This document shows positions 2,524-24,961 of a stretch of DNA of 42,529 nt, piece after piece. Origin of the DNA: an uncultured Candidatus Saccharibacteria bacterium (GTDB lineage Bacteria > Patescibacteriota > 4484-211 > JAGQKX01); the NCBI GenBank assembly GCA_964392315.1, contig CAYMOT010000002.1, positions 228,365 through 270,893 on the forward strand, in the 5' to 3' direction. Position 1 is the stretch's first letter, and every line of letters starts with the position of its first letter. The position numbers were made by a program, and so were the translations under genes. The notes under the pieces are model-generated. The model did not search any database. It had not been told where the DNA came from and saw only the letters and a list, made by a program, of their open reading frames with translations.

Positions 2524-4798
2524 TAAACAACTATTTGTCTCAATTGGGGTTCTGATCATGTATGTTCAACTAATTATATTGAGTAATAGTTCGGCATATT
2601 ACTCATCGGCATTCCTGTTTGTATTTTTTATTACAATACCCGGTGTTTTGTTGTTATTGTTGACACGCACTACCTTTAAAAGCATTGCTGAGTACATGAT
2701 TAGTGCAATCGGTTTAAGTATCTCATTACTCATGATGACTGGATTACTCTTAAACCAGACGCTTTTATTCGTAGGACTAACACAACCGTTGGGACGTACC
2801 TACCTACTCGTCGCGCTCAATATACTCACTATGCTGATATTTGTACTGGCCTACGTCAGAACAAATCAGCAGATATTTCAGCTCCCCATTCGTTCTATGA
2901 ATATTGTGAGTATTGTATGTGGAGTATTCGTTGCCATATTCCCTATTATTGCAAGTATTGGAGCGATTTCTCTGAATAACAACGGTACGAACATGTATAC
3001 CCTGCTCACGCTTAGTCTAATAGCCATGTATGTTTTCATGGTGATAGCGGCGAATAAACACATTGACACACGCATATATCCAGTAGCGCTCTTTTGTATC
3101 ACCCTCTCTCTGCTTCTCATGACCTCTCTACGAGGATGGTATACAACAGGGCATGATAATCAGCTCGAATCATACATGTTCCAACTTACTCATGAGGATC
3201 TCACCTGGGACATTGCCGAATACCGCGATCCCTATAACGCAAGCTTGAGTATTACTATTCTGCCGAGTATGCTTTCGACGATTACGGGTGTTAGTGGCAT
3301 ATACGTATTCAAGGTGTTATTTCAGGTTATCTTCGCGTGGATCGCTGTTGCGGTATATCTGTTTGCACGAAATTTTGCGGGGGCGGTCACATCATTTTTG
3401 GCAGCGTTTATATTTATCTCCTTCCCCAGTTTTATAAGCAGTATGCCAATGCTAAATAGACAAGAGATTGCTTTATTACTATTTTCATTGATATTACTTA
3501 CGCTTTTTAGTAATTCAGTAACCGGTTTCCGTAAAGCCATACTTCTTATCCTATATGGGGCTGGCATGATGTTCTCTCATTACTCCACAACCTATATTGC
3601 ACTTGGACTTCTGTTGTTATGCACTCTTATTGCTTTTGTTGTTCGTCTTAATCCTTTTCAGTTTTTTTCACGTCTTCGCCTTACGATACATACGCCTAAA
3701 GTCTCTGTACTATTTGTACTCTATCTTTTACTTATTACTTTTACCTGGAATGTGTTACTGACAAAAACAACTGCTGGACTTACGGCAACGGTAACTCAAG
3801 TCTATACAAATCTTGATGAGATATTTAACCCTAACACTCGTTCAAGCGATGCGTTCTATAACCTATTTAATTGGAAGAAACCAGATCAAGCAAAATTATT
3901 AGAACTGTACCAAACCGAAACGTTTCAGGAAATCCGAGAAGGAAAAGACGAAGCTTCATTCTATCCACTAGAGCTCTATAATCAGTATCCGATTATTCAA
4001 ACTGCCGAACAGCCTCTTTCTGCAAGTCGCATTGGAGAGTCACTCACGAGACTTGGGATACACCCCTTCTCCCTCAATTTTACCTTACGTCAGTTACTCG
4101 CACGTGGGATTCAGTTACTGGTTGGCTTGGGTGTTATGATCATTTTCTTAAGGAAACTACGTATGAAAAGAGAGATTGATACAGAATATCTCGTGTTGTC
4201 CTTCTTGGCCATCCTGACGCTTGTTCTTTTTATTGTGCTGCCCTTCTTATCCGTTATGTACGGAACACAACGGCTATTCCAACAGCTACTGGTAATACTA
4301 GCGTTTCCCCTTGTATATAGCGTTGTTTCACTGTTTAGTCTGTTTAGTAAAAAGTATGCCATTTTACCCACTGCACTATTTTTTATTGGCATATTTGCCT
4401 CATTTTCCGGACTGCTCCCGCAGCTTACTGGAGGATATTATGCTCAATTACATTTAAACAACGATGGTGTTGATTATCGATCGTACTATACGCATGAGAT
4501 GGAAGTGGTAGCCTCATCATGGCTCAAAAACCATATTGATAGTTCACATGACATCTATACAAACGCCCCAATGCGCACAAAACTTACAGCACTGACTGGT
4601 CTTTTTGCATACGACACAATGTTGCCTTCTGTTATCAGAAGAGAAGCATACGTGTTCCTCGATACCGACACTGTTTCGACACATCACGCAATTGCCTCAT
4701 ACAATGAAGATGAAATTTTTTACGATTACCCAATAGCCTTTCTGGAAAACAACAAGAATCTTGTTTACAGCAACTCTGGCTCACACATTTATAAATAG
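2498..4798 (+). CDS. Large polytopic membrane protein, DUF2206-like (putative glycan polymerase/transferase)
   Basis: More than 12 hydrophobic segments with motifs PGVLLL, LRGWY..GHD..E, NASLSITILP, RQEIA, SHYST. Located within a GT cluster. The ORF is open from 2474; ATG 2498 was chosen to reduce overlap, and 2480 is an alternative. Confidence 0.7.
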   Translation: MKKHLLLTNKQLFVSIGVLIMYVQLIILSNSSAYYSSAFLFVFFITIPGVLLLLLTRTTFKSIAEYMISAIGLSISLLMMTGLLLNQTLLFVGLTQPLGRTYLLVALNILTMLIFVLAYVRTNQQIFQLPIRSMNIVSIVCGVFVAIFPIIASIGAISLNNNGTNMYTLLTLSLIAMYVFMVIAANKHIDTRIYPVALFCITLSLLLMTSLRGWYTTGHDNQLESYMFQLTHEDLTWDIAEYRDPYNASLSITILPSMLSTITGVSGIYVFKVLFQVIFAWIAVAVYLFARNFAGAVTSFLAAFIFISFPSFISSMPMLNRQEIALLLFSLILLTLFSNSVTGFRKAILLILYGAGMMFSHYSTTYIALGLLLLCTLIAFVVRLNPFQFFSRLRLTIHTPKVSVLFVLYLLLITFTWNVLLTKTTAGLTATVTQVYTNLDEIFNPNTRSSDAFYNLFNWKKPDQAKLLELYQTETFQEIREGKDEASFYPLELYNQYPIIQTAEQPLSASRIGESLTRLGIHPFSLNFTLRQLLARGIQLLVGLGVMIIFLRKLRMKREIDTEYLVLSFLAILTLVLFIVLPFLSVMYGTQRLFQQLLVILAFPLVYSVVSLFSLFSKKYAILPTALFFIGIFASFSGLLPQLTGGYYAQLHLNNDGVDYRSYYTHEMEVVASSWLKNHIDSSHDIYTNAPMRTKLTALTGLFAYDTMLPSVIRREAYVFLDTDTVSTHHAIASYNEDEIFYDYPIAFLENNKNLVYSNSGSHIYK

Positions 4799-7906: not shown

Positions 7907-8722
7907 ATGCATGAAATTATCACCAGCGCCAAAAATCCAAAAGTTCAACTTTTCCAAAAACTTCGAGATAAGAAGTGGCGGCAACGAGAGAAAAAATTTG
8001 TTATAGATGATATTCGAGATCTTACGAGAGCGATACAGCTTGGTTGCCAGGTTTCGTACATCCTGTATTCCCCCAGTCTATTGTTTGAGACAGAAACAAA
8101 ATTCCTAACGAATATTAAAACGCCAATGTTTGAAATACCAGTTGATATCATGACAAAGATTTCATATCGCGAGAATCCCTCAGGGGTCATTGCCGTACTT
8201 AACGAATCTCCTGAACCAAAACTAGTTGATTTACCTGCCGAAAATATTCCAACAATCCTTGCACTTGTCGGACTTACCAAGCCGGGTAACATTGGTGCAC
8301 TCTTGAGAACTGCCGATGCAACGGGTATACAAGCAGTTTTTTTGGTAGACACTGACTTGGATTTGTATAACCCGAATATCATTCGTGCCAGTACGGGTGC
8401 ATGTTTTCGCAACAATGTCTATTTTACGACTACCGATGAAGCACAACAGTGGTTTTTGCAACACCAATATCACGTAGTAGCCCTACACCTAGAAGGCAAG
8501 ACTAACGTATACAATGTAGATTTCAGTCAAAAAACTGTACTGGTGCTGGGTACTGAGGATACTGGGCTGAGCAACCAATGGGTAAAAGGCAATACAACTC
8601 TGACCAAAATTCCAATGCAGGGCGAGATAGTAGATTCACTAAACGTATCAGTTACCGGTGCAATCTGTATGTTTGAGGCACTGCGACAACGGAACAATAC
8701 TTCCGAAAGCAGCACGCATTAA
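7907..8722 (+). CDS. TrmH/SpoU family RNA 2'-O-methyltransferase
   Basis: ITSAKNPKV, PGNIGALLRTADA, LVLGTEDTGL, SLNVSV. The start at 7907 follows a TACAAT -10 at 7895-7900. Confidence 0.92.
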   Translation: MHEIITSAKNPKVQLFQKLRDKKWRQREKKFVIDDIRDLTRAIQLGCQVSYILYSPSLLFETETKFLTNIKTPMFEIPVDIMTKISYRENPSGVIAVLNESPEPKLVDLPAENIPTILALVGLTKPGNIGALLRTADATGIQAVFLVDTDLDLYNPNIIRASTGACFRNNVYFTTTDEAQQWFLQHQYHVVALHLEGKTNVYNVDFSQKTVLVLGTEDTGLSNQWVKGNTTLTKIPMQGEIVDSLNVSVTGAICMFEALRQRNNTSESSTH

Positions 8723-8747
8723 GTATAATCAGTACGCCTCATCTTAT

Positions 8748-8821
8748 TGCGGGGTCGTCTAACGGCAGGACTCTGGGTTTTGGTCCCAGCTATCGGGGTT
8801 CGAATCCCTGCCCCGCAGCCA
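8748..8821 (+). tRNA. tRNA-Gln (anticodon TTG)
   Basis: Acceptor stem TGCGGGG/CCCCGCA, anticodon stem CTGGG/CCCAG with TTG at 8780-8782, T-loop GTTCGAAT, encoded CCA end at 8819-8821; TATAAT upstream at 8724-8729. Confidence 0.97.
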
Positions 8822-9004
8822 ATTGGTGTTTCGAACCAACGGCTCATGTCTCTTTCTCCTAAAACAACCCTTCCATTTATCCTTTCGTGGCTTGGTATTC
8901 AACCGTTCGAGAATGTTCAAAAATTAGCTATAAAGGCTGTTTTTCCATTTCTGGTTCTGAAGTTGCAGTTTAGCAGAATATATCCTATCCATTTGCCTAA
9001 TTAC

Positions 9005-9034
9005 TACTAATTGTCTTAGTACATATGCTATAGT
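9005..9034 (+). promoter_or_regulatory. BlaI-type operator TACTAA-N5-TTAGTA (9005-9021) plus extended -10 TGcTATAGT (9026-9034)
   Basis: Perfect 6-bp inverted repeat; -10 ends 8 nt before the blaI ATG; a second copy of the palindrome is at 10385-10401. Confidence 0.7.
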
Positions 9035-9041
9035 AGTTGTA

Positions 9042-9428
9042 ATGAAAGGTAAACACTCTCATGGACAAAAAGCTCTTACCGAAGCAGAAAAAGAAATAAT
9101 GGATGTTATCTGGGGAAAAAATGAAACTACGGTTCGTGGTGTCCTAGAAACTCTCCAAAAGCACAAAGAAGTCGCATATACCACAGTAATGACACTGATG
9201 GATATTTTACACAAAAAAGGACATCTTACACGCAAATTGGTCGGAAAGGCATACGTCTATTCCCCTGCGCAAGATAAAAAAACGTTTCAATCAATGTATG
9301 TTGGGAGGGTAGTTGAGGAGCTATTTGATCAGTATGGAGAGATTGCTGTTAATCAGTTTGCAGCTGAAATTGATTCATTACCCGATAAACTGAAACAACG
9401 TCTAAAAGAAAAATTATCCAATGAGTAA
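9042..9428 (+). CDS. BlaI/MecI/CopY family transcriptional repressor
   Basis: LTEAEKEIMDVIW, VAYTTVMTLMDILHKKGHL, GKAYVYSP. Confidence 0.92.
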   Translation: MKGKHSHGQKALTEAEKEIMDVIWGKNETTVRGVLETLQKHKEVAYTTVMTLMDILHKKGHLTRKLVGKAYVYSPAQDKKTFQSMYVGRVVEELFDQYGEIAVNQFAAEIDSLPDKLKQRLKEKLSNE

Positions 9429-10368
9429 ATCCAGCGTTTATTTTACCAGTATTGTAATGGCAGCACTTGTTACGCTCTTTTCCTTGTGGCATTTTATCCG
9501 TTTGGGATCCCTAAAAGTTGTACAATTTCTCATTCACCCCGCTATAGAATTAGTTAACTACTGTCAGACCGTCCTTGCTCAAATAATCGATAATCCCACT
9601 GTAACTGCATCATTCATCACAATCATATTTATCACCTCTGGTGCTTTACTGGTCGTTGTTTTAATCACTATTTCGATACGAAAATATGGAAAACTTACTG
9701 GGCTCCTTAGACCATCGGTCCCATCTGAAAAACTCACGAAGGTTATGAAAGATTTGGACATCACTACAGAAGTGGTTTGTCTCTCTACACAAAATGTCTA
9801 TTCGTTTTGCGCCGGACTTATACAGCCCAAAATTTATGTGTCCAAAGGGTTGGTAGACACATTTTCTGAAAAAGAGCTCAAGGCAGTATTAGCCCACGAA
9901 AGTCATCACGCTAAATCGTATGATCCACTCAAATCACTCATAATTTCTTGTGTAACAAAAGTGCCACTTCTGTCAAAATTCACCAAACAAATCTCACAAA
10001 GATTTATCCTCCTTCAGGAACTTGATGCTGATGCCTACGCAATTCAACATTCCGATAAAACAACTTTTTTACATGCACTGACAAAGGCATCATTTGTGCA
10101 TGAAATTCCAGCTCCTGCGTTTTCAAACGCCCAGACCTTACGTTTTGAGTATCATTTATCACGCAAACCGAGCTACAAAATGGGCAAATCTCTGTTTATA
10201 TCTACAGCAATGATAACCCTCTTACTCGCAACCAACCTACTTATATTGAATTTCACTAGCGAAAACACGGGAGATTCAGTAATTCATGTGCTTTCTCATA
10301 CAGAAACCGCTTGCCAGAGTGAGACTCCAGCCTCGTTCATTTCTACAACAGCCTCAACACACACTTGA
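9421..10368 (+). CDS. M56 family membrane metallopeptidase (BlaR1 N-terminal-like, no penicillin-binding domain)
   Basis: FCAGLIQPKIYVS, HExxH (LAHESHH), QELDADAYA; translationally coupled to blaI. Confidence 0.88.
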   Translation: MSKSSVYFTSIVMAALVTLFSLWHFIRLGSLKVVQFLIHPAIELVNYCQTVLAQIIDNPTVTASFITIIFITSGALLVVVLITISIRKYGKLTGLLRPSVPSEKLTKVMKDLDITTEVVCLSTQNVYSFCAGLIQPKIYVSKGLVDTFSEKELKAVLAHESHHAKSYDPLKSLIISCVTKVPLLSKFTKQISQRFILLQELDADAYAIQHSDKTTFLHALTKASFVHEIPAPAFSNAQTLRFEYHLSRKPSYKMGKSLFISTAMITLLLATNLLILNFTSENTGDSVIHVLSHTETACQSETPASFISTTASTHT

Positions 10369-10381
10369 TCCACCAAGCACT

Positions 10382-10404
10382 ATCTACTAAACTATTTAGT
10401 AGAT
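10382..10404 (+). promoter_or_regulatory. Second BlaI-type operator ATCTACTAA-N5-TTAGTAGAT overlapping the ccdA start
   Basis: Perfect 9-bp inverted repeat whose core is identical to 9005-9021; overlaps a TAAACT -10-like hexamer (10388-10393) and the ATG at 10403. Confidence 0.72.
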
Positions 10405-11182
10405 GTTTATATCAATTCCTTTCATGGCCGTAATAGCATTTGTGGGTGGAGCACTCTCCTTTCTGTCGCCTTGTACAGCAGTAATATTACCAGGATATTT
10501 TGCATACACATTTCAGGAAAACGTGAAAATGCTCAAGGCATCCGTTCTTTATGCATTGGGCTTAAGTATTGTTTATATACCGCTTGGACTTGGTGTAACT
10601 ACAGTTACCAAATTGCTCGCACCGAGTGCTACCTTCATCGGCATAATAATTGGTGTTTCTTTTATCGGTTTCGGCTTCACAACACTATTTGGGAAATATA
10701 TAACCGTTCCACTATTAGATAAATTAAAAAATAGACTACAGTTGACTCATCAAGGCAAGCATACAACACCGCTATTTCTAGGTTTCTTAACTGGTCTCGG
10801 TTCAACCCCATGTGCTGGATCAATTCTGGGGGCAATATTAACCATGGCCGCAACAACTCAAAATATTTATCTTGGAGCATTTCTAATGTTTTTGTACGTA
10901 ATAGGAATATTCACCCCTCTTGTGCTTTTTAGTTTCTTTCTGAAGAAAAACACTGTCGTTAAAAACCTACTAATAGGCAAAGTGTTTACCTTCACATTCA
11001 ATGAGAAAAAATACAAGTTTCAAAGCACTCAATTAATCTCTGGATCATTATTTCTAATTCTAGGTATATTTTTTCTCATGCTTGGCAACGGCGATGCTTT
11101 GGGCAGTTTTTTCACGACAACCGGATTATTCGACATAACACTAGACCTACAAGATTCATTATTAGAACTATTCGTTAAGTGA
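10403..11182 (+). CDS. CcdA/DsbD-like thiol:disulfide membrane electron transporter
   Basis: GALSFLSPC..ILPGY and STPCAGSILG motifs; multiple TM segments. Confidence 0.85.
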   Translation: MFISIPFMAVIAFVGGALSFLSPCTAVILPGYFAYTFQENVKMLKASVLYALGLSIVYIPLGLGVTTVTKLLAPSATFIGIIIGVSFIGFGFTTLFGKYITVPLLDKLKNRLQLTHQGKHTTPLFLGFLTGLGSTPCAGSILGAILTMAATTQNIYLGAFLMFLYVIGIFTPLVLFSFFLKKNTVVKNLLIGKVFTFTFNEKKYKFQSTQLISGSLFLILGIFFLMLGNGDALGSFFTTTGLFDITLDLQDSLLELFVK

Positions 11183-11198
11183 AAGTTGGTGATTATAT

Positions 11199-11969
11199 AT
11201 GGATGAAAACAAAAAAACTGGCATAACGATTACAACACCGGTCGCGATTATTATTGCAGGGGCGATAATCGGTATTGCGGTCTATGCCGCCAACGGAAGT
11301 GGTTCTACTGATACGACCACACGTACACAAGCTCAAACCACAACTACCACCCAACAGCCAGTTGGAAACACACAACAAGTTACTGAACCTTCAGGACCAG
11401 TAACCGTTTCTGTCGATGATGATCCGTTTTTGGGTAATCCAGATGCTCCGGTAACGATGATCGACTTTAGTGATTATGAGTGTCCATTCTGTAAACGACA
11501 TGTTGATCAATCCTTTGATCAGATAAAAACTGAGTATATCGATACAGGAAAACTGAAATACGTGTATCGTGATCTACCTCTTTCATTCCACGACCCTCTA
11601 GCGACACAACAAGCCATTGCAGCTAATTGTGCTCGCGAGCAAGGAGATGATGAGACCTATTTTGCATACCACGATGAGATTTTCAATAGAACAAGTTCAA
11701 ACGGAAATGGTATGGAAAAAAGCGAATTGTACACCATTGCCTCAGACTTGGGATTAAACGATGGACAGTTCAAAGAATGTTTAGATAGTGAGAAATACAA
11801 AGCTGAAGTTCAAGCGGATATTGCAGATGCCAGTAACGCTGGTGCAAGTGCGACACCAACATTCTTCATCGGAAAATCGACTGATTCTGGAGCTATTGAA
11901 GGTCAACAAGTCGTTGGAGCTCAACCATTTTCAGTCATCAAGTCGACAATCGATTCAATGCTGGAATGA
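11199..11969 (+). CDS. DsbA/Com1-like thioredoxin-fold protein, membrane anchored
   Basis: N-terminal TM helix, Thr/Gln-rich linker, DDDPFLG..APVTM, CPFC active site, cis-Pro loop ATPTF. Confidence 0.92.
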   Translation: MDENKKTGITITTPVAIIIAGAIIGIAVYAANGSGSTDTTTRTQAQTTTTTQQPVGNTQQVTEPSGPVTVSVDDDPFLGNPDAPVTMIDFSDYECPFCKRHVDQSFDQIKTEYIDTGKLKYVYRDLPLSFHDPLATQQAIAANCAREQGDDETYFAYHDEIFNRTSSNGNGMEKSELYTIASDLGLNDGQFKECLDSEKYKAEVQADIADASNAGASATPTFFIGKSTDSGAIEGQQVVGAQPFSVIKSTIDSMLE

Positions 11970-11987
11970 TGCTAAGGTAGTACATCA

Positions 11988-12016
11988 AGAGTCAGTTAGT
12001 TCAATTGACTGACTCT
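11988..12016. repeat. Intergenic inverted repeat AGAGTCAGT-N11-ACTGACTCT
   Basis: Perfect 9-bp arms; no U-tract on either side. Confidence 0.6.
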
Positions 12017-12035
12017 CAGGTGTTGCAAATATATT

Positions 12036-12496
12036 ATGGTTAAAAAATTAAGTCCATCAGAATTAAGCAAATTATCTAAATCTGAGCGAAAAACTTACGA
12101 CCGACGAGTCCAACGGGAGGGTACAATAATGGAACTAAAAGATCGTTTCTGGACCGGTACAAAGTAACTTTATCTTTCGCCGTTGTTTTAATCCTCATAG
12201 TCGTAGGTATGGCACTCTATTTTAAAGACTTCTATAATCCTGTAATCTTACCGCCAATATCAGCTAATCCACATGTGGAGGTTTCACCACAGGAACATAT
12301 ATTAACTGAACCAATGAATTTGTCTGTACAGCGCCATATGCTAGAACATGCAGATGGTGATGGACAACCTGGTGTGATTATTAACTATAATTGTGAGGAT
12401 TTTGATTGTAATGATGACTTTCTACCAACCTTGGCCAAAACTGTTGAAACATATCCTAACTTTGTTTATTTGGCTCCTTCTAAAAATATGCCGTAA
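12036..12496 (+). pseudogene. Frameshifted membrane-anchored protein, DUF3105-like
   Basis: MVKKLSP...LKDR from ATG 12036 joins FLDRYKVTLSFAVVLILIVVGMALY... if one T is added at about 12146. The downstream part has QRHMLEH..GVIINYNC..VYLAP, resembling the DUF3105 HxLEH motif. Confidence 0.55.
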
Positions 12497-12628
12497 AATT
12501 GTGAGGCATTTTATTAGTTCAAGAAATGAAGGCCGGCGGGTGTGTACCCCTTTAGTGAAAAGTTTAAGGTTACTCCCTCTGGGTTTCATCAGAAATTCTA
12601 GTCTACTGACAGAGAAATATTGGAAGAC

Positions 12629-13396
12629 CTAACTATCTAAAACTACATTCGCTATGATGGTATTTTCCAACCTTGGATAATTTGGATGATCTGTTTCAAC
12701 GTAGATCGTTCGGGTAAGATCACCTACATCTGTCGCATCGCCATGTACCGCTGGATCAAAAGTGACTCTCATATCAATTGATTCGCCTGATTGTACGGTA
12801 TCTTTTTCAGGAAATGCTTGTGTACAACCACATGATGTGGTGACTCGAGTCAGAGCAATCTCCTGATCTGTGTTGTTGAAAATAACAAAATTCGTTTCGG
12901 GAACATCACCATAAATGACTATCCCAAGATCTTGGTTTGCTGGAGTAATGGTGACTCCTTGTTGGTTCTTTTGGACATATGCATCATATGCTATTTTCCC
13001 GCCAACAAGGTTTTTGACATTTGTGTACCCAAGGTCTATGAGTGTTTGAGAGGCAATTTGGCTCATATTACCGCTTCTGCAGTAGACCAATATTTCTGCA
13101 TCCTTATCGACAGGCAGATCACCAATATTGGCTTCTATCTCAGTATATGGGATAAATGTATCAGTCCCTTGAATATGCTCTTGTTCAGGAATATGCGTAT
13201 CAACGACAAATGGGTCACTAGTCTCGATGATTGAAATGAACTCCTCAGCGGTTACATCTTGATAGCTTTCAATTGTTGTATTCTGCGTATCCTCAGTTTC
13301 TATGTTGTCCTTTTCACTAGGCGATGAATAACTGACCACTAAAGCTCCAATTACAAGAACAAGTACTGCTGGTATTACAAAGGTTATTAATTTCAT
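12629..13396 (-). CDS. Exported rhodanese-domain protein fused to a DUF1573 (Ig-like) domain
   Basis: N-terminal anchor; rhodanese active loop VYCRSGNMS; C-terminal VTTSCGCT..VTFDP..HG. Confidence 0.82.
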   Translation of the reverse strand: MKLITFVIPAVLVLVIGALVVSYSSPSEKDNIETEDTQNTTIESYQDVTAEEFISIIETSDPFVVDTHIPEQEHIQGTDTFIPYTEIEANIGDLPVDKDAEILVYCRSGNMSQIASQTLIDLGYTNVKNLVGGKIAYDAYVQKNQQGVTITPANQDLGIVIYGDVPETNFVIFNNTDQEIALTRVTTSCGCTQAFPEKDTVQSGESIDMRVTFDPAVHGDATDVGDLTRTIYVETDHPNYPRLENTIIANVVLDS

Positions 13397-15398: not shown

Positions 15399-16763
15399 CT
15401 AAATAGAAAAATCTAAAGAAATTGTAGTACCCTTACCTTCAATAGAAGTTATACTCAATGTTCCATTCATGTTTTCAGTAACGGTTTTGGTAATTGCCAA
15501 TCCAAGCCCAGTCCCTGAGCCAATGCTGTTGCTAGCCCGATAAAATCTATTTGATACATTTTTAATCTCTGATTCAGGTATCCCGATCCCAGTGTCTTTA
15601 ACTACAACTACAATGTGGGTTTTGTTTTTGGTCAAAGATACAGAAACAGTTCCCTTGGATGGTGTATAGGTAATCGCGTTTTCTAATAGATTTAACAAAG
15701 CTCTCGTAAATAGTGATTTATCACCCTGTACTACTATTCCAGGTTGTACGTTCTTCTTAACGATTATTCGCTTGTCCTCTGCTAGAGTTTCCGAGATTTC
15801 GATCACTTCATGTACTAGAGATGACAGATCTACTTCAGTCATTGACTGTTTTATCACGCCTTGCAATCGTGAAAGGTACAAGAGATCTTGGACAGTCTTA
15901 TGCAGACCATTGAGCGTATGTAAAAGTTTTTCCTTAGTTGTCACTGATGTCTCGATGCTTTCAATTTGGGTATGCAACACAGTAATTGGTGTTTTGAGTG
16001 TGTGTGCTGCGTCAGCAAAGAATTGTCGTTGTACTTTAAACGATTCTTCTAGGCGATCTAACATTGAATTTAAAACATCTGCTAATTCACCAAGCTCACC
16101 TTGTGATTCAGTATCGGGAATTCGGTCTTGCAAATTTGCTGAGTGAGTAATCGTATTTGCGGTAGAAGTGATTGCACGAATGGGTGAGAGTGCTCTCTTT
16201 GCAATTACATACCCAACGAAACACACAATAACAATCGAAATCAACAACAAGCTAGATAAAGCTATCAACGACTGGTTAAATGTATTCTCGAGTAGGCTAG
16301 TCTGAAATCCGACACCAATGACTCCTTGTGATGAAGCTATCGTTGTTGGTATCAATACAAACCTAATTGAATCAATAGAGAAGTAGTGAGGTATTGTTAC
16401 ATCGTCGTTTCGCACTATGACAAGATGTTGTTGCAGTTGATGTTGAGCAGGGAGAGCTATATCTTCGCTTGTACTTTGCAAGAGTATCTCTCCGTCTGGT
16501 GCCATTACCATTACAACCATCCCTTGAGATGCAACGAGACTTTGGATAATTTCCTCACCCTCTATACCAGATTGTTGCCAAACAGTCTCAACCTGTTCCA
16601 CTACCGTTTGAAGATGGTGTTCTATCTGCTGATTGAGGATATTCCAAAATATTAAACTAGCTACGAACAAAAACGTTGCAAACAGGAATGTAAAACTAGT
16701 AACATACCAGACAGTCAATCGCCCTCTAATTGTCCTAACCCATTGGCTGAATTGCTTAATCAT
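15399..16763 (-). CDS. HAMP-domain sensor histidine kinase
   Basis: Two TM helices, HAMP (ELGELADVLNSMLDRLE), H-box DAAHTLKTP, N-box NLLENAITYT, G1 DTGIGI, G2 GTGLGLAI. Confidence 0.93.
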   Translation of the reverse strand: MIKQFSQWVRTIRGRLTVWYVTSFTFLFATFLFVASLIFWNILNQQIEHHLQTVVEQVETVWQQSGIEGEEIIQSLVASQGMVVMVMAPDGEILLQSTSEDIALPAQHQLQQHLVIVRNDDVTIPHYFSIDSIRFVLIPTTIASSQGVIGVGFQTSLLENTFNQSLIALSSLLLISIVIVCFVGYVIAKRALSPIRAITSTANTITHSANLQDRIPDTESQGELGELADVLNSMLDRLEESFKVQRQFFADAAHTLKTPITVLHTQIESIETSVTTKEKLLHTLNGLHKTVQDLLYLSRLQGVIKQSMTEVDLSSLVHEVIEISETLAEDKRIIVKKNVQPGIVVQGDKSLFTRALLNLLENAITYTPSKGTVSVSLTKNKTHIVVVVKDTGIGIPESEIKNVSNRFYRASNSIGSGTGLGLAITKTVTENMNGTLSITSIEGKGTTISLDFSI

Positions 16764-17439
16764 CTACACTCTCCTCCCGTAATATGTAGCCCTTTCCTCT
16801 AATTGTATGAAGCAATTTGGTATCGAATCCATTATCAATCTTGTTGCGTAAGTTCTTTATGTATACATCAACGACATTTGAGAGTGTTTCAAACTCACTT
16901 CCCCAAACATGATCGAGTATCATCGTACGGGTAACCACATTCCCTTTGTTTCGTGCAAGAAATTCCAGTACTGAAAACTCTTTTGCTGGCAAATCTATGT
17001 CTTTACCACCCCTTTTGATGGTATGTGCCTGCGGATCAATTTCTAAATCAGCAATTAAAATTGTAGGTGATGGATCTTTGGTACTCCGACGAATTAACGC
17101 ATGGATTCGGGCTGTTAATTCATCCATTGAAAACGGTTTTGGTAAATAGTCATCTGCACCCAACTGTAGCCCTGTCACACGGTGTTCTATGTCAGAATAC
17201 GCCGTGAGCATAATGACCGGAGTAGCAATACTTTCTTTACGAAGAGACTTAATAATCTCAAAGCCATCCTTGTAGGGTAAGTTAATATCCAAGACAACAG
17301 CATCAAATGCTTCCTCTGTTGCACGGAATTCGCCATCCTCGCCGTCGAAAGCTATTTCGGCTACAAAGCCTTCTTTTCTTAAATGGTCTTGAATATTATG
17401 GGCAATATCCTTGTCATCTTCGATAATAAGTATTCGCAT
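16756..17439 (-). CDS. OmpR/PhoB family response regulator (CusR-like)
   Basis: ILIIEDD, VLDINLP, LTA, DDYLPKPF; winged-helix region VVDVYIKNLRNKID..TIRGKGY. Confidence 0.95.
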   Translation of the reverse strand: MRILIIEDDKDIAHNIQDHLRKEGFVAEIAFDGEDGEFRATEEAFDAVVLDINLPYKDGFEIIKSLRKESIATPVIMLTAYSDIEHRVTGLQLGADDYLPKPFSMDELTARIHALIRRSTKDPSPTILIADLEIDPQAHTIKRGGKDIDLPAKEFSVLEFLARNKGNVVTRTMILDHVWGSEFETLSNVVDVYIKNLRNKIDNGFDTKLLHTIRGKGYILREESVDD

Positions 17440-17487
17440 TGTAATTATGTGTTATTGCTATCATCTATATTTACACACCTATCATAC

Positions 17488-18018
17488 CTATACTTCAAGC
17501 TGCTTTTTAAAATATTCCAGCTCTTTAAACGTATGCGGAACGTACCCTTTTTTATTTGCATAAAGTTCCGAAATTTTGAAAAACAGTTTTCCTATAATAG
17601 TTTCCGGTATCCGTAGGTACACCGTATGTGAAACAAGAGATCCTTCGGATGCAGGTTCAACCATAACCACGCCACTTTCAGGCACTCTCAATCGTAATAA
17701 ACCGAACATATGATATTCAGCCAAACCAGTCCACACGCACACCTTCGGTCTTTCTGCATAGAGAATGTGTCCATGTAAATCTGCATACACACCCGAAACT
17801 TTTTCTTTTTGATAAAACGCTACTCCTGTTTCGGGGCGATTTATATTATTGTAAAAAGTTAAGCCCAAATGCTCGTCTGGGTTAGAAGCTGTCCATGTCT
17901 CAGGATCATATGCATATTCCCATATTTTCTCCGGTTCAGCTTTGACGACTACTTCATATCGTTTGGTCAACCACCCACTGTTTTGATCTAGATTGTCAGG
18001 ATGTATTTCTGGTCTCAT
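17488..18018 (-). CDS. SRPBCC/START-like hypothetical protein
   Basis: EVVVKAEPEKIWEYAYDPETW resembles an SRPBCC N-terminus; sits in a tight operon. Confidence 0.55.
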   Translation of the reverse strand: MRPEIHPDNLDQNSGWLTKRYEVVVKAEPEKIWEYAYDPETWTASNPDEHLGLTFYNNINRPETGVAFYQKEKVSGVYADLHGHILYAERPKVCVWTGLAEYHMFGLLRLRVPESGVVMVEPASEGSLVSHTVYLRIPETIIGKLFFKISELYANKKGYVPHTFKELEYFKKQLEV

Positions 18019-18021
18019 GTT

Positions 18022-19593
18022 TTAACTTACTTCAAAAAGTGTCATCATTCCGGCTTCCATATGTTCAGGAATATGGCAATGCATCATCCAGTCTCCAGGA
18101 TTAGTGATATCTAACAGAATATCAATAGTCTCTCCTTTACCAATAAGGACAGTATCTTTCCAGACAAAATTATCATTTGTCTTGCCGTCTTTAGCTAGGA
18201 CCAAAAAGCGCTGGCCATGAAAATGTATTGGATGTTGCATGGGATGCATGGTATCGGGGTCGTTGAAAATGCGTATCTTAACCTTGTCGCCACTTTTAAA
18301 CTGCCAATTAATACCCATATTCTCTTTGTTAGTAACAGAATCAATCAGTTTCCATGTAAGAGTTCCATTTGTTGATCCTTGATTCATCATACTCATAGTA
18401 TCTTCCCATTCGATCAGTTCGTCATCTCTGCCCATTTGCATAGAGTTATTATTCATCATCTGACCATTACTCATCATGTGCATACCATGTCCGTTATTTT
18501 CCATAGTATTTGAACTACTAGCGTTACCCATAATCATTGATAGAACAAGATTTTTATCAGGAGCCTTATCAACAAAAGCTCGATACCGGGACAATTCTTT
18601 AATAGTGTCTTCATTATTCCGGGTAACAGGAAGGTAAGAGGTCGTAAAAGGCCCAGGTTCTACCTCAATGGTACCCATGGTGTATGTTTTGTCTGGAGTT
18701 AGGTTATTAATTGTATAATTCCCAGAATCAGTAAAATACACTTCAACGATATATCTTTCCGAAGGTCCAATGATTACTGAATCCACCCATTCTTCTCGTT
18801 CATATTTACCACTATCGCTTCCAATTAATTTCATGCGGGTATTGGGAATCGAAAAATTAAAAACTCTCGTATTAGCTGCGTTTGTAATATACAAGCGCAA
18901 TCGTTCCCCTTGTTTAGCCTGTAATACAAAATCATCTTTTCCATTTATGAGCATCGTATTCCCGAATCTGCCCATTAGTGCGTGAGTGACCGTTGTTTTA
19001 TCAAATGGTGCAATCTGTCCGTTTTCAATTAAAATATCATCCAAAAAAAGAGTTTCTTCACGATCAACTTCTGCCCAGTAGGCAGTATCGTTTGGAACAA
19101 CAATAAAGTTGCCATATAAACCCATTTCTTGGGTGTAATCCTCTCGAACATGTGGATGGTACCAATACACCCCAGGATCAGGAAACGTTATCTTATAGGT
19201 AAATGAGCCGTGTGGTTTTATAGTCTCTTGCGTAACCTCAGCTACGCCATCAAATGCATTCTCAAGACGGACACCGTGTGAATGTAGTGTTGTCTCAACA
19301 TCAATATTGTTATTAAGGGTCAAGTAAATAGTTGCCCCCTGTACTATTCGTATTGTAGGGCCAGGTATCGAACCGTTATAGGCAAACATCGTTACATCAT
19401 TCCCCTCAATTTCAGAAATAACGGGAGATGCAGTGATTTCATACGACGATCCGTCCTGCAAAATCACATTTTCAGTAGATTTTATAGTTGGTATTTGATT
19501 TCCAAAGGGACGCCAATTATCCAGGGAAAAAATAACTAAAAAAATCAAGATAAGTCCAAAAAGTGATAGAAGTATTTTATTTTTTGCTAACAT
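18022..19593 (-). CDS. Exported multicopper oxidase (CueO/CopA-like)
   Basis: All four Cu motifs present: HSHG, WYHPH, HPIHFHG, HCHIPEHMEAGM; Met/His-rich insert. The start was moved to MLAKNK (19593) because the upstream extension overlaps the DUF2933 gene. Confidence 0.95.
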   Translation of the reverse strand: MLAKNKILLSLFGLILIFLVIFSLDNWRPFGNQIPTIKSTENVILQDGSSYEITASPVISEIEGNDVTMFAYNGSIPGPTIRIVQGATIYLTLNNNIDVETTLHSHGVRLENAFDGVAEVTQETIKPHGSFTYKITFPDPGVYWYHPHVREDYTQEMGLYGNFIVVPNDTAYWAEVDREETLFLDDILIENGQIAPFDKTTVTHALMGRFGNTMLINGKDDFVLQAKQGERLRLYITNAANTRVFNFSIPNTRMKLIGSDSGKYEREEWVDSVIIGPSERYIVEVYFTDSGNYTINNLTPDKTYTMGTIEVEPGPFTTSYLPVTRNNEDTIKELSRYRAFVDKAPDKNLVLSMIMGNASSSNTMENNGHGMHMMSNGQMMNNNSMQMGRDDELIEWEDTMSMMNQGSTNGTLTWKLIDSVTNKENMGINWQFKSGDKVKIRIFNDPDTMHPMQHPIHFHGQRFLVLAKDGKTNDNFVWKDTVLIGKGETIDILLDITNPGDWMMHCHIPEHMEAGMMTLFEVS

Positions 19594-19771
19594 GTTGGTT
19601 TTCTTGCTGTGTATGCCCATGTGATCGATGCATAAAAATATGCATGATAGGACAAAAAAGCAAAAACATTCCCCATACAATATTCTCTCGAACCAAAGGG
19701 AACAGTATGTACACACCTAATAAACTAAAAATAAAAATCACACATGCAATTATCAAAAAATTATGCTTCAT
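19577..19771 (-). CDS. DUF2933-like small membrane protein
   Basis: LLFCPIMHIFMHRSHGH signature, commonly found next to Cu-ATPases. Confidence 0.78.
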   Translation of the reverse strand: MKHNFLIIACVIFIFSLLGVYILFPLVRENIVWGMFLLFCPIMHIFMHRSHGHTQQENQHVSKK

Positions 19772-19775
19772 ATAG

Positions 19776-21917: not shown

Positions 21918-22201
21918 TAACTCCTTTCTCCCGCAAGTTCATAAATTTTTAGTAGCTCATTGAAAACCTTCTCGTCAATCTGTCCAGACTTGCTGTTTTC
22001 GAGATGCTCCTTAATATGGGTTTTCATATGGTTTTGCAGAATCAACTTATTAAGTGAGCGTATTGATTTCTGTATAGCTAATGACTGTGTAAAAATGTCA
22101 ACGCAATATTCCTCATTTTCAATCATCTTTTCTAACCCCTTTATCTGGCCCTGGATGATTCGTGTGCGATGTATGGCACGCTTTTTAATATCTTTAATCA
22201 T
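21917..22201 (-). CDS. csoR: CsoR/RcnR family metal-sensing repressor
   Basis: RIIQGQIKGLEKMI..YCVDIFTQ..LQNHMKTH; coupled to the ATPase (TAATG). The start was moved to 22201 because the upstream extension is the operator. Confidence 0.88.
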   Translation of the reverse strand: MIKDIKKRAIHRTRIIQGQIKGLEKMIENEEYCVDIFTQSLAIQKSIRSLNKLILQNHMKTHIKEHLENSKSGQIDEKVFNELLKIYELAGERS

Positions 22202-22207
22202 GTACCC

Positions 22208-22237: not shown

Positions 22238-22242
22238 GAGAG

Positions 22243-23100: not shown

Positions 23101-23102
23101 AA

Positions 23103-23689: not shown

Positions 23690-24961
23690 TTAGGGTGAGA
23701 TAAGTCTTTTGTTTGTCAGTACTACATCTTTTAGTAACTCGTTTACCAATTCTCGTTTTGCGTCGCGACTGCCACTTGTTGTTACTTTCTTGGCATATCC
23801 GACAAGGTCGAGATCCTTGGTGTGATGAAAAATTTTGTGATTATCCAAGACAGTATCGCGTAGCCTTTCATACTGCTCAATTGATTTCTTTAACTTATCG
23901 CTTATTTCTAAATCATCGGTGTTTTCGCTAATGAACCTCACAACTTCATCTTCAAGTTCTTTTTGTGACATATATTTGTTCTGATTACATTTTTTAAATG
24001 GTGTACGTACACAATGATAGTAAATATGTTCTCGATACCGACCACTCTTCAGCTTACGCCGCTTTAATTCGCCTGTAATGTTATATCCGCACTCACCGCA
24101 TTTAAATACATTTCTATAATCAAGCTCCACACTTCTCCACGGAGCTTTTTCCGGCACAGTCATTTTTACCTGTACTTTATCGAATAACTCTTTGGAAATA
24201 AGTGGCTCATGAGCACCCTCGTACCAGTTACCAGTATCTTTTGGGTATTCAAATTCGCCGTAGTAAAAAGAATTCTTGAGTACTCGGTAGATCATACTAA
24301 GAGGTACTTGTTTACCGTTTGGAGTTGTGACCCCTTCTTTATCAAACATTCGTTTTAGATCTCTGCCGTAGTAACAACCCTCTCCAAATAGTTCAAACAT
24401 CTCTTTAATACTGTCTGCTCGTTCAGGATCTTGAATAATTTTTTTAATGCCACCCTGAGATACATTCATGTATCCAATTGGCGCAGGGCCAGGTCGCCAG
24501 CCCATTTCACACTTTGCTCGAATGCCGCGCTTCACGTTTATTCCTTTCTGGTCGTTCTCTAACTTGGCCTGACTGCAAAGGATCATGAGGAGGAATTTTT
24601 GTCCCGGATCATTAGTAAACGTTTGTGAATACGTGCGTATTTGTTGTAGTTTCCCTTGATCCATTAAATCAACAAGTTGACCCAAGTCGCCTGCATTTCT
24701 ACTGAGCCTGTCTGGTGCCCATGTTAGTATTCCTCCAAATTCACCACGTCCAATATCCGTTATCAATTGCTTGAATATAGGACGTATCCCAGAATCTTTT
24801 GCAGAGTGACTTTCACTCCTAATGTCTCTAATCTGTAACCCTTCCTTTACTGCCAACTCAGTCATCTCCTTTATCTGAGAATCAATTGACATTGTCTGTC
24901 GTTCATCAGATTCGCTTGATTTACGGGCATATAAGCAGTAGTTGATACTTTCTTGCTCCAT
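23690..24961 (-). CDS. Large serine recombinase (resolvase + recombinase + Zn-ribbon)
   Basis: YARKSSE (catalytic Ser), WAPDRLSRN, GPAPIGY, HEPLISKELF, CGECG..YYHC. The ORF is open from 24991; ATG 24961 is preferred. Confidence 0.93.
   Translation of the reverse strand: MEQESINYCLYARKSSESDERQTMSIDSQIKEMTELAVKEGLQIRDIRSESHSAKDSGIRPIFKQLITDIGRGEFGGILTWAPDRLSRNAGDLGQLVDLMDQGKLQQIRTYSQTFTNDPGQKFLLMILCSQAKLENDQKGINVKRGIRAKCEMGWRPGPAPIGYMNVSQGGIKKIIQDPERADSIKEMFELFGEGCYYGRDLKRMFDKEGVTTPNGKQVPLSMIYRVLKNSFYYGEFEYPKDTGNWYEGAHEPLISKELFDKVQVKMTVPEKAPWRSVELDYRNVFKCGECGYNITGELKRRKLKSGRYREHIYYHCVRTPFKKCNQNKYMSQKELEDEVVRFISENTDDLEISDKLKKSIEQYERLRDTVLDNHKIFHHTKDLDLVGYAKKVTTSGSRDAKRELVNELLKDVVLTNKRLISP

What the first reader, a model, noticed from the sequence alone, without database searches (positions are those of the whole stretch)
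9005..11969. BlaI/M56 sensor pair appears to control a CcdA-DsbA redox module through a duplicated operator
Seen: TACTAA-N5-TTAGTA occurs in front of blaI (9005-9021) and again, extended to 9-bp arms, on top of the ccdA start (10382-10404). The M56 protein has HExxH but no penicillin-binding domain. Known: BlaI repressors autoregulate via palindromes and are released by M56 proteolysis; the reported mycobacterial BlaI site TAC[GT]AC-N5-GT[AC]GTA has the same geometry. Inference: this is a proteolytic signalling switch for envelope thiol/copper stress rather than beta-lactams, with an unknown inducer.
Basis: partly seen in the sequence, partly recalled or inferred. Interest (0 to 1): 0.65.

Follow-up and report, generated by a model that had tools for sequence, protein, structure and literature searches.

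The report
Sensor-less BlaI/M56 switch on copper-disulfide genes
A repressor and a membrane protease related to the staphylococcal penicillin-sensing pair, here without any penicillin sensor, very probably switch on a disulfide-repair gene pair inside a mobile copper-resistance island of an ultra-small (Patescibacteria) bacterium; this is a new variant of a copper-triggered switch already shown in cyanobacteria.

Summary
TACTAA-N5-TTAGTA occurs at 9005-9021, 21 nt before blaI. It occurs again at 10385-10401, with 9-bp arms spanning 10382-10404 over the ccdA ATG. These are the only exact copies in the 995-kb genome.

The genes are a Cys-free BlaI-family repressor, a 315-aa M56/M48 protease without a penicillin-binding domain, CcdA and a DsbA-like protein.

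The two-operator layout recurs in an ~80%-identical module, in a same-order orthologue, in about 14 Patescibacteria paralogous loci and in 4 out-of-sample loci. The family consensus is TACTAC-N5-GTAGTA. The second operator always lies on the -10 of a promoter for the cargo.

Cargo is DsbA-like first. HMA/cupredoxin-fused DsbD, a multicopper oxidase, CsoR or a copper ATPase often follow.

The protease family keeps two outward-facing cysteines: C48 in 94% and C298 in 87% of 115 representatives.

A third strong site (23720-23736) lies upstream of the island's copper operon.

The likely mechanism is BlaI repression relieved by M56 proteolysis on copper or thiol stress. The signal is inferred, not shown.

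PetR/PetP of Synechocystis already shows a copper-dependent BlaI/BlaR switch, so I class this as a new variant of a known kind. Earlier notes of this scan describe the same kind.

The parts
8748..8821 (+). tRNA-Gln. Its 3' end is the left junction of the mobile island that carries the module.
   Evidence: ARAGORN. In other contigs, identity with the window starts at the ...CAGCCA end of the tRNA.
9005..9021 (.). Operator O1, TACTAA-TTGTC-TTAGTA. It lies at -37 to -21 relative to the blaI ATG.
   Evidence: It holds the same position (-37) in L054, where homology with the window begins only 5 nt upstream of it.
9026..9034 (+). Putative extended -10 of the blaI promoter (TGC-TATAGT), 7 nt before the ATG, implying a leaderless blaI mRNA.
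   Evidence: TGnTATAnT followed by 6-7 nt and then ATG is conserved in the window, L054 and L012. This is inference from sequence; no transcription start has been mapped.
9042..9428 (+). blaI: BlaI/MecI/CopY-family winged-helix repressor of 128 aa with no cysteine.
   Evidence: PF03965 at 88.3 bits. PDB sequence hits to MecI, BlaI and Rv1846c. Best NCBIfam hit is CopY_TcrY at 53 bits, below its cut-off of 122.
9421..10368 (+). Sensor-less M56/M48 membrane zinc protease of 315 aa. It overlaps blaI by 8 nt.
   Evidence: Pfam. H159, E160, H163, E200 and D204 are invariant; C48 is kept in 94% and C298 in 87% of 115 representatives. AF2 model has pLDDT 81, and its best fold match is S. aureus BlaR1 8EXQ at E 3e-5.
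10365..10370 (+). Putative -35 (TTGATC) of the internal ccdA promoter. It overlaps the M56 stop codon.
   Evidence: It is conserved in L054 while the DNA between it and O2 has diverged. It is TTGACC in L012 and TTGACA in most paralogous loci, always 17-18 nt before the hexamer inside the operator. It falls below the threshold of the generic promoter scanner.
10382..10404 (.). Operator O2, ATCTACTAA-ACTAT-TTAGTAGAT (core 10385-10401). It covers the putative -10 TAAACT (10388-10393) and the first two bases of the ccdA ATG.
   Evidence: The arms are 18/18 identical in L054, and L012 has AACTACTAA-ACTCT-TTAGTAGTT. It scores 20.1 bits against the family PWM.
10403..11182 (+). ccdA: DsbD_TM-type thiol-disulfide transporter with both catalytic cysteines (C24, C147).
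   Evidence: PF02683; sequence. The ATG abuts the operator in all three orthologues.
11199..11969 (+). Membrane-anchored DsbA-like thioredoxin-fold protein with CPFC active site.
   Evidence: Thioredoxin_4 at 114 bits and DSBA at 51 bits. One N-terminal TM segment. Nearest NCBIfam is the Rcas_1661 thioredoxin-like (seleno)lipoprotein, 135 bits, below cut-off.
11988..12016 (+). Strong hairpin after dsbA. It is the probable end of the transcription unit, although it has no U-tract.
   Evidence: RNA fold of -20.2 kcal/mol, z = -5.3.
23720..23736 (.). Candidate third operator O3, TACTAC-ATCTT-TTAGTA. It lies inside the last codons of the serine recombinase gene, about 90 nt upstream of the DUF1573-CcdA2-CsoR-CopA-multicopper oxidase operon on the minus strand.
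   Evidence: It is the top hit of the family PWM in the whole genome (20.4 bits; the next best outside the locus scores 12.5), and it was not in the training set. Context. Its role is unresolved because it does not overlap a recognisable promoter.

Best explanation
The four genes blaI, M56, ccdA and dsbA, with operators O1 and O2, form a self-contained mobile regulatory cassette inside a copper-resistance island.

Repression. In the resting state a BlaI dimer sits on O1, over the -35 and spacer region of a leaderless, extended -10 blaI promoter. A second dimer sits on O2, directly on the -10 and start point of an internal, near-leaderless ccdA promoter. At O2 it can also block read-through from the blaI promoter.

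Sensing. The partner protein is a three-helix membrane zinc protease of the BlaR1 type. It has no penicillin-binding domain. Instead it exposes a loop (residues 23-65, with C48) and a short acidic His/Cys tail (residues 277-315, with H289, H293 and C298) on the outside of the cell. I infer that copper, or the thiol mis-oxidation that copper causes, changes the state of this outward-facing cysteine pair. The change would be either Cu(I) bridging or a disulfide.

Output. The cytoplasmic protease is then activated and BlaI is cut or degraded. Both promoters open, giving more sensor plus CcdA, which imports reducing power from the cytoplasm, and an anchored DsbA-like oxidoreductase that repairs or reduces wrongly oxidised envelope cysteines, in the manner of the Scs system.

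What is shown: the palindromes, their uniqueness in the genome, their conservation and covariation across loci, their overlap with promoter elements, the family assignments, the conserved cysteines and the copper/disulfide cargo.

What is inferred: binding, proteolysis, the inducer and the direction of the redox chemistry.
For: 1. The pair is unique in the genome and placed at gene starts.

2. Footprinting by comparison. In L054 the module is about 80% identical. Homology starts 5 nt before O1, the O2 arms are 18/18 identical and the -35 is kept, while the DNA between them has diverged. L012 keeps TACTAA-N5-TTAGTA on the ccdA ATG.

3. In 14 of 16 Patescibacteria blaI-M56 loci there is one palindrome just before blaI and one after M56. 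Geometry covaries within a locus: the loci with an N4 spacer have both sites N4, and L015 and L005 have CCTAC/GTAGG at both sites.

4. In about 199 kb of such loci all 31 PWM hits of at least 14 bits lie upstream of gene starts. Nine of them were not in the training set.

5. Four randomly picked M56 relatives from the 1.8-billion-protein library show hits only before blaI, after M56, and once before a P-type ATPase.

6. Operator positions 4-9 form the -10 hexamer, 17-18 nt after TTGACA, TTTACA or TTGATC, in every mid-operator.

7. Cargo is DsbA-like, DsbD_2 fused to HMA and cupredoxin, CsoR, copper ATPase or multicopper oxidase. In L012 a third perfect palindrome sits about 15 nt before a multicopper oxidase gene. 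Sister copies have an exact TACTAA-N5-TTAGTA 8 nt before a cupredoxin gene.

8. BlaI has no cysteine, so it cannot sense copper the way CopY does.

9. In the M56 family the catalytic residues are invariant, C48 is kept in 94% and C298 in 87%. Both lie on segments with 0-2 K+R, against 24 K+R in the protease loop. The best fold match is BlaR1.

10. Precedent: PetP degrades PetR only when copper is present.

11. The genome has a VKOR and three other DsbA-like genes elsewhere, so this pair is accessory.
Against: - No binding, cleavage or expression data exist.
- The promoters are hand-read, and the generic scanner does not call them.
- O1 scores only 11.2 bits against the family PWM because of its unusual spacer.
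- The AF2 model is of low confidence in the tail (pLDDT about 50), so proximity of C48 and C298 is not shown.
- One relative pairs the switch with DsbB-DsbA and has no copper gene within the 4.5-kb contig. That points to thiol stress rather than copper itself.
- The island also carries CsoR and a two-component system that could handle copper sensing without BlaI.
- O3 does not overlap a recognisable promoter.
Confidence: 0.65

Rival explanations
1. The wiring is the same (BlaI on O1 and O2, M56 releasing it), but the signal is neither copper nor thiol stress. It would be some other envelope cue such as a cell-wall fragment, a peptide or membrane stress, and the copper genes are only neighbours on the same mobile island.
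For: Signals are unknown for almost all sensor-less BlaR proteins. CenIR of C. difficile controls cell-wall genes, and no inducer was found for it. L012 has a VanY-type carboxypeptidase gene divergent from blaI. One relative shows no copper genes in a short contig.
Against: The gene directly behind the second operator is a thiol-disulfide or copper protein in every locus examined. Operators also sit in front of a multicopper oxidase, a cupredoxin and P-type ATPases. The only strongly conserved outward-facing residues are two cysteines.
Confidence: 0.15
2. The palindromes are bound by a different regulator of the island (CsoR or the OmpR-type response regulator), and BlaI/M56 controls something else.
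For: CsoR and a two-component system are encoded 10-13 kb away.
Against: The palindrome family travels with blaI-M56 in loci that have no CsoR or two-component genes nearby. It always includes an autoregulatory site just before blaI. Its TAC...GTA / TACA-N3-TGTA form is that of BlaI/CopY/PetR operators. The 3.2-kb module moves as a unit, 99% identical in other contexts, without those regulators.
Confidence: 0.04
3. O2 acts mainly as an RNA hairpin that hides the ccdA start codon in read-through transcripts. On this view it is a translational or attenuation device, not an operator.
For: The O2 region folds to -9.7 kcal/mol (z = -3.3) and the stem includes the AU of the AUG. One symmetric change between the window and L012 keeps the pairing: ATC...GAT against AAC...GTT.
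Against: O1 has the same arms but folds to only -2.6 kcal/mol, no better than shuffled sequence. Across about 20 loci the arm sequence itself is conserved (TACTAC/GTAGTA) rather than just the pairing. The spacer length is fixed at 4 or 5 nt. Sites occur upstream of promoters, where they would not be transcribed. A hairpin effect may exist in addition to operator function.
Confidence: 0.05
4. The repeat of the palindrome is a chance event or a remnant with no function.
For: Perfect 6-N5-6 palindromes of any sequence are common, about one per 4 kb by simple expectation. Near matches to this one are not enriched.
Against: The same hexamer occurs twice and only here. It is conserved in diverged orthologues. 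The architecture is reproduced in out-of-sample loci.
Confidence: 0.01

Closest known systems
PetR/PetP of Synechocystis sp. PCC 6803 (Garcia-Canas et al., bioRxiv 10.1101/2020.07.31.226407; read)
   Same: Both have a BlaI/CopY-family regulator without the CopY Cys motif and an M48/M56 membrane protease without a beta-lactam domain. In Synechocystis, PetR degradation needs PetP and copper. The PetR operator is an inverted repeat, GACA-N3-TGTC, with the same spacing as the TACA-N3-TGTA core of the family consensus found here. PetR represses a cupredoxin gene (plastocyanin), and sister copies of this module carry an operator in front of a cupredoxin gene.
   Different: PetP's candidate copper ligands are two conserved methionines in the outer loop. 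Here that loop has no methionine, and there is a conserved cysteine plus a conserved cysteine in the C-terminal tail. The PetRP regulon is a photosynthetic carrier switch of four genes. Here the output is disulfide and copper defence on a mobile island. PetR also activates a gene; no sign of activation is seen here. The operator half-site is TACTAA here, not GAC.
BlaI/BlaR1 and MecI/MecR1 of Staphylococcus aureus and Bacillus licheniformis
   Same: The order is repressor gene followed by protease gene, with autoregulation through palindromes that contain TAC...GTA. There are two operators. The fold of the transmembrane and zinc-protease part matches BlaR1 (8EXQ). The repressor is homologous.
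   Different: There is no transpeptidase sensor domain, and one transmembrane helix fewer by hydropathy. There is no beta-lactamase or PBP2a target. The second operator controls a downstream promoter on the same strand, not a divergent resistance gene.
Mycobacterium tuberculosis BlaI (Rv1846c) / BlaR (Rv1845c)
   Same: The BlaR is sensor-less. The reported motif TAC[GT]AC-N5-GT[AC]GTA (recalled from Sala et al. 2009, not verified here) contains the Patescibacteria consensus TACTAC-N5-GTAGTA derived. The repressor is homologous to 2G9W.
   Different: The mycobacterial regulon (BlaC, ATP synthase) is unrelated to copper or disulfide genes. The window's sites have A/T where that motif has C/G at position 6.
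CopY/CopR copper repressors of Firmicutes
   Same: They belong to the same protein family. The cop box TACANNTGTA has the geometry used by the N4 loci L015, L005 and L034a. They also have two operators and control copper genes.
   Different: CopY senses Cu(I) itself through a C-terminal CxC...CxC motif. This BlaI has no cysteine and instead has a protease partner. The NCBIfam CopY_TcrY score is far below cut-off.
Scs (suppressor of copper sensitivity) and DsbD-DsbC/G systems of Proteobacteria
   Same: This is the analogue of the output module. A membrane thiol-disulfide transporter of the DsbD/CcdA type is paired with a DsbA-like thioredoxin-fold protein and induced under copper stress (literature listed; knowledge of the family).
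   Different: Those systems are regulated by CpxR, CueR or a two-component system, not by a proteolytic switch. CcdA here is the minimal six-helix form without periplasmic domains. The redox direction is not tested here.

Membership tests
BlaI/MecI/CopY repressors (Pfam PF03965) | Winged-helix Penicillinase_R domain above the curated score | tested here: met
   88.3 bits against a cut-off of 22.6, covering residues 12-125. phmmer hits to MecI 1OKR, BlaI 1SD4 and Rv1846c 2G9W.
BlaI/MecI/CopY repressors (Pfam PF03965) | Binds a palindrome with TAC(A)...(T)GTA half-sites in its own promoter | tested here: inconclusive
   Palindromes of that form are present, conserved and covarying. Binding itself cannot be tested with these tools.
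BlaI/MecI subtype (protease-released) | Scissile Asn-Phe in the C-terminal dimerisation helix | tested here: inconclusive
   The window has N104-Q105-F106. The Phe is conserved in 18 of 18 Patescibacteria homologues, but the residue before it varies. The alignment to MecI N101/F102 is from memory only; HMMER alignments stop at residue 83.
CopY/TcrY subtype (direct copper sensor) | C-terminal CxC-x4-CxC metal site | tested here: not met
   The protein contains no cysteine. CopY_TcrY equivalog scores 53.5 bits against a cut-off of 121.95.
BlaR1/MecR1 signal transducers (Peptidase M56) | M56 domain with HExxH and a downstream Glu ligand in a cytoplasmic loop between transmembrane helices | tested here: met
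   PF05569 at 35.7 bits (cut-off 31) and PF01435 at 44.2 bits. H159, E160, H163, E200 and D204 are invariant in 115 relatives. The loop 85-257 has 24 K+R. Foldseek to BlaR1 8EXQ gives E 3e-5.
BlaR1/MecR1 signal transducers (Peptidase M56) | Extracellular penicillin-binding (transpeptidase, PF00905) sensor domain | tested here: not met
   No such hit. Only 39 residues follow the last transmembrane helix. It is therefore not a beta-lactam sensor. According to the CenIR paper only about 6% of M56 proteins have this domain.
BlaR1/MecR1 signal transducers (Peptidase M56) | Adjacent blaI-like gene upstream | tested here: met
   blaI ends 8 nt inside the M56 gene. The same order holds in all related loci.
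PetR/PetP-type copper switch | Copper-dependent degradation of the repressor by the protease | not testable with these tools
   This needs extracts or in vivo assays. Only the genomic association with copper genes is shown.
PetR/PetP-type copper switch | Two conserved Met in the outer loop of the protease (M53 and M58 in PetP) | tested here: not met
   Loop 23-65 has no Met. The conserved residue is C48, together with C298 in the tail.
CcdA / DsbD transmembrane family | DsbD_TM domain with one catalytic Cys in each half | tested here: met
   PF02683 at 44.6 bits. C24 lies in SPCT and C147 in TPCA.
DsbA-like / ScsC-like thioredoxin-fold oxidoreductases | Thioredoxin_4/DSBA domain with a CxxC active site and a cis-Pro loop | tested here: met
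   114 bits and 51 bits. C95-P-F-C98 and the T-P of ATPTFF are present. Redox direction and oligomeric state were not tested.

The most novel reading that the evidence does not exclude
The outward-facing pair C48 (loop) and C298 (tail, within H-x3-H-x4-C) is a minimal thiol/Cu(I) latch that directly gates a BlaR-type protease. The CcdA/DsbA-like pair that it induces re-reduces the latch. The cassette would then be a self-resetting homeostat for envelope cysteine redox state, and it would give the largest, signal-less class of 'BlaR-like' proteins a defined sensing chemistry. A side prediction concerns a single recognition-helix change: Arg is replaced by Ile55, seen only in the window and L012. 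This change would re-tune operator position 6 from C:G to A:T.
Probability: 0.3. Interest if true: 0.7.

Novelty: new variant of a known kind. Interest (0 to 1): 0.5.

Why it matters
[quoted passage not shown] Apart from PetP, their signals are unknown. This locus belongs to a large clade of short M56 proteases: 2,702 clusters at 50% identity reach E<=1e-3.

For that clade, the sequence data give three things:
- a concrete candidate signal (copper or thiol stress);
- candidate sensing residues (two outward-facing cysteines);
- a defined operator and promoter architecture.

All of these can be tested in an ordinary laboratory host.

The locus also shows how ultra-small Patescibacteria, which have few regulators, acquire a complete sense-and-respond cassette by horizontal transfer. 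The 3.2-kb module is 99% identical in unrelated genomic contexts.

It is not a new principle, because PetR/PetP already links this protein pair to copper.

Tried and rejected
1. The search for related loci on genome contigs with BlaI alone returned only distant Bacteroidota and Firmicutes hits and no orthologues. The genome search and the look-up of encoding contigs were used instead.

2. The generic sigma-70 scanner did not call either promoter. The promoters reported are hand-read and rest on cross-locus conservation.

No transcript starts or expression evidence could be obtained, and read laying was not used.

4. AF2 of the M56 protein gave a good core, but the tail has pLDDT about 50. The idea of showing contact between C48 and C298 was dropped.

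5. I tried to verify the mycobacterial motif in held papers. It was not found, and Sala et al. 2009 is not held.

6. Literature searches for a described BlaI/M56 link to copper or DsbA in Patescibacteria found nothing. PetR/PetP surfaced only through earlier notes of this scan and was then read directly.

7. I considered and rejected CsoR or the response regulator as the binder, and a pure RNA-hairpin role; see the rival explanations.

8. One-mismatch copies of the palindrome elsewhere in the genome (C1, C3, C4, C5) lie inside ORFs, score no more than 12.5 bits and occur at the chance rate. They are treated as noise.


Full report
**1. What is in the sequence**

Region 8700-12300 and its ORFs give four genes on the + strand, directly after tRNA-Gln (8748-8821).

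- blaI is at 9042-9428 and encodes 128 aa. It matches Penicillinase_R PF03965 at 88 bits.
- An M56/M48 membrane protease is at 9421-10368 and encodes 315 aa. It carries HESHH at residues 159-163 and has no further domain.
- ccdA is at 10403-11182 and matches DsbD_TM.
- A membrane-anchored DsbA-like protein is at 11199-11969. It matches Thioredoxin_4/DSBA and has a CPFC active site.

blaI and the protease gene overlap by 8 nt.

TACTAA-TTGTC-TTAGTA lies at 9005-9021. ATCTACTAA-ACTAT-TTAGTAGAT lies at 10382-10404, and its last two bases begin the ccdA ATG.

The window lies in a genome of 995 kb and 43% G+C. Its relatives place it in the Patescibacteria (CPR).

**2. Is it more than chance?**

The two sites are the only exact matches to TACTAA-N5-TTAGTA in the genome. 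From base composition I expect about 0.15.

One-mismatch copies occur at the chance rate: 6 seen against about 5 expected. All but one of them lie inside ORFs.

The argument therefore rests on the exact pair, its placement at two gene starts that flank blaI-M56, and its conservation.

**3. Conservation in orthologues**

L054 is a metagenome contig that carries the same gene order. Its module DNA is about 80% identical to the window.
- Homology with the window begins at 9000, five bases before O1.
- O1 sits at the same -37 position, as TACTAG-TTTGC-TTAGTA.
- The 9-bp arms of O2 are 18/18 identical and the hexamer TTGATC is kept.
- The 11 bases between that hexamer and O2 have diverged.

L012 comes from a genome of the same order but a different family. 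Its BlaI is 57% identical.
- It has blaI-M56-ccdA-dsbA with AACTACTAA-ACTCT-TTAGTAGTT directly on the ccdA ATG.
- TACGAT-GTGGT-ATAGTA lies before blaI.
- A third, perfect TACTAT-ACCAT-ATAGTA lies about 15 nt before a multicopper oxidase gene.

**4. The wider family**

BlaI homologues occur in only 17 of 401 sampled genomes of the phylum. Almost all of them are followed by a short M56 gene.

In 14 of 16 loci with enough DNA there is one palindrome 0-40 nt before blaI and one between the M56 stop and the next gene. The consensus is TACTACA-N3-TGTAGTA.

Three loci (L015, L005, L034a) use a spacer one base shorter at both of their sites. L015 and L005 use CCTAC/GTAGG at both sites. This within-locus covariation is what a cognate repressor-operator pair predicts.

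I built a PWM from 25 sites and scanned about 199 kb of these loci. It gives 31 hits of at least 14 bits, and all lie upstream of gene starts. Nine of them were not in the training set.

As an out-of-sample test I picked four M56 relatives from an exhaustive search. That search found 2,702 clusters at E<=1e-3, and all top hits are 210-360 aa long. I then looked up their contigs.
- All four have blaI upstream.
- The three with downstream DNA have a DsbA-like gene next.
- The PWM hits only before blaI, after M56, and once before a P-type ATPase.

**5. Promoter architecture (read from sequence, not measured)**

In every mid-operator, positions 4-9 of the 17-mer form a -10-like hexamer (TACACT, TACAAT or TACAGT; TAAACT in the window). 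This hexamer lies 17-18 nt downstream of TTGACA, TTTACA, TTGACC or TTGATC.

In the window this gives TTGATC (10365-10370), a 17-nt spacer, TAAACT (10388-10393) and the ATG at 10403. The ccdA mRNA would be leaderless or nearly so. A repressor on O2 would occlude the -10 and the start point.

Before blaI, an extended -10 (TGnTATAnT) followed by 6-7 nt and the ATG is conserved in the window, L054 and L012. O1 covers -37 to -21 in the window and L054, and overlaps the -10 in L012.

The generic promoter scanner does not call these promoters.

A strong hairpin at 11988-12016 (-20.2 kcal/mol) probably ends the unit.

**6. Context and cargo**

The window's island runs from the tRNA to a serine recombinase. 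It also holds several other gene groups:
- a rhodanese/DUF1573 four-gene operon;
- a histidine kinase and response regulator;
- a multicopper oxidase and a copper-type P-ATPase with an HMBD domain;
- CsoR, a second CcdA-like gene and a DUF1573 gene.

In the paralogous loci the genes behind the second operator are DsbA-like proteins, DsbD_2 fused to HMA and cupredoxin domains, CsoR, HMA chaperones and P-type ATPases.

The identical BlaI protein is found on at least 24 contigs. The 3.2-kb module from the tRNA end to the dsbA stop is 99% identical in contigs whose upstream neighbour is an A2M-like gene or a restriction-modification system. The next operon is only 78% identical. The cassette therefore moves or recombines as a unit.

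In those sister copies dsbA is followed by a multicopper oxidase gene. A cupredoxin gene there carries an exact TACTAA-GTCTG-TTAGTA 8 nt before its start.

The host genome has a VKOR and three other DsbA-like genes elsewhere. The island's CcdA-DsbA pair is therefore an accessory pair, most likely reductive or isomerising.

**7. A third site in the window**

Scanned over the whole genome, the family PWM puts 23720-23736 (TACTAC-ATCTT-TTAGTA, 20.4 bits) first and O2 (20.1 bits) second. The next best hit outside the locus scores 12.5 bits. O1 scores 11.2 bits because of its spacer.

The third site lies in the last codons of the recombinase gene, about 90 nt upstream of the DUF1573-CcdA2-CsoR-CopA-oxidase operon.

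It overlaps no recognisable promoter. It may act as a roadblock to read-through, or it may be a remnant. I list it as a candidate only.

**8. The sensor**

Hydropathy and charge place the loop 23-65 and the tail 277-315 outside the cell, and the protease loop 85-257 inside.

In 115 full-length relatives H159, E160, H163, E200 and D204 are invariant. C48 in the outer loop is kept in 94% and C298 in the tail in 87%. Many paralogues have CGC in the loop and two to four Cys in the tail. The window's tail reads H289-x3-H293-x4-C298.

The AF2 model (pLDDT 81) matches S. aureus BlaR1 best (8EXQ, E 3e-5). Its tail is of low confidence, so contact between the two cysteines is not shown.

BlaI itself has no cysteine and lacks the CopY metal site.

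**9. A specificity covariation**

All 16 other Patescibacteria BlaI proteins have Arg at the position that is Ile55 in the window and in L012. Only these two loci use A/T instead of C/G at operator position 6. This is a single evolutionary event and is only a hypothesis, but it is directly testable.

**10. Comparison with what is known**

- The CenIR paper states that only about 6% of M56 proteins have a transpeptidase domain and that the signals of the rest are unknown.
- PetR/PetP of Synechocystis is a BlaI-family regulator degraded by an M56 protease only in the presence of copper. Its operator core is GACA-N3-TGTC, and two loop methionines are the candidate ligands.
- CopY operators are RNYKACANNTGTMRNY.

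The present system works like PetRP. It differs in its candidate sensing residues (Cys rather than Met), its output (disulfide and copper defence rather than a photosynthetic carrier switch), its operator half-site and its mobility.

I found no paper describing it. Earlier notes of this scan describe the same kind of locus in many other genomes. I used those notes only as a lead to PetRP.

**11. Verdict**

I estimate operator function at about 0.85, release by proteolysis at about 0.7, and copper or thiol stress as the signal at about 0.6. I class the finding as a new variant of a known kind, of moderate interest.

Noticed in passing
window 8822-11969 compared with L041, L043 and L045: The blaI-M56-ccdA-dsbA module is 99% identical in contigs with quite different left neighbours: an A2M-like giant gene, a restriction-modification system, or another tRNA-Gln allele. 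The adjoining rhodanese operon is only 78% identical. Identity starts at the ...CAGCCA end of the tRNA. This looks like a recently mobile or recombining cassette.
   Followed up: partly
window 11970-12657: Sister copies carry a multicopper oxidase gene and a cupredoxin gene with its own TACTAA-N5-TTAGTA operator here. The window instead has unrelated DNA holding a broken DUF3105-like gene. The window's copy has therefore lost or exchanged part of the regulon.
   Followed up: partly
window 11988-12016: A 13-bp-stem hairpin after dsbA folds to -20.2 kcal/mol (z = -5.3) and has no U-tract. It is probably the end of the ccdA-dsbA unit.
   Followed up: partly
L012 11399-11415 (G006:C38): A perfect TACTAT-ACCAT-ATAGTA lies about 15 nt before a multicopper oxidase gene and next to a tRNA gene. 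This is a third operator of the orthologous regulon. A VanY-type carboxypeptidase gene lies divergent from blaI in the same locus.
   Followed up: partly
window 9204-9206 (BlaI Ile55): Ile replaces an Arg that is present in all 16 other Patescibacteria BlaI homologues. The only other case is the L012 orthologue. These two loci are also the only ones whose operators have A/T instead of C/G at position 6.
   Followed up: partly
genome contig C1:400314-400691: A VKOR domain lies inside a 527-aa open frame, probably a VKOR fusion protein. With three further DsbA-like genes (C1, C3, C2:1024-1473) it forms the housekeeping disulfide-forming system outside the island.
   Followed up: no
L057 (GCA_964527145.1 contig, 2031-3127): A related BlaI/M56 pair with the same two operators controls DsbB-DsbA-SurA-like genes, and no copper gene is visible in the contig. 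This suggests that the common denominator of the clade is disulfide handling.
   Followed up: no
window 15402-23630, minus strand: One island carries three different metal or stress regulators: BlaI/M56, CsoR, and a histidine kinase with an OmpR-type regulator. This is unusual for a 1-Mb genome with few regulators.
   Followed up: no
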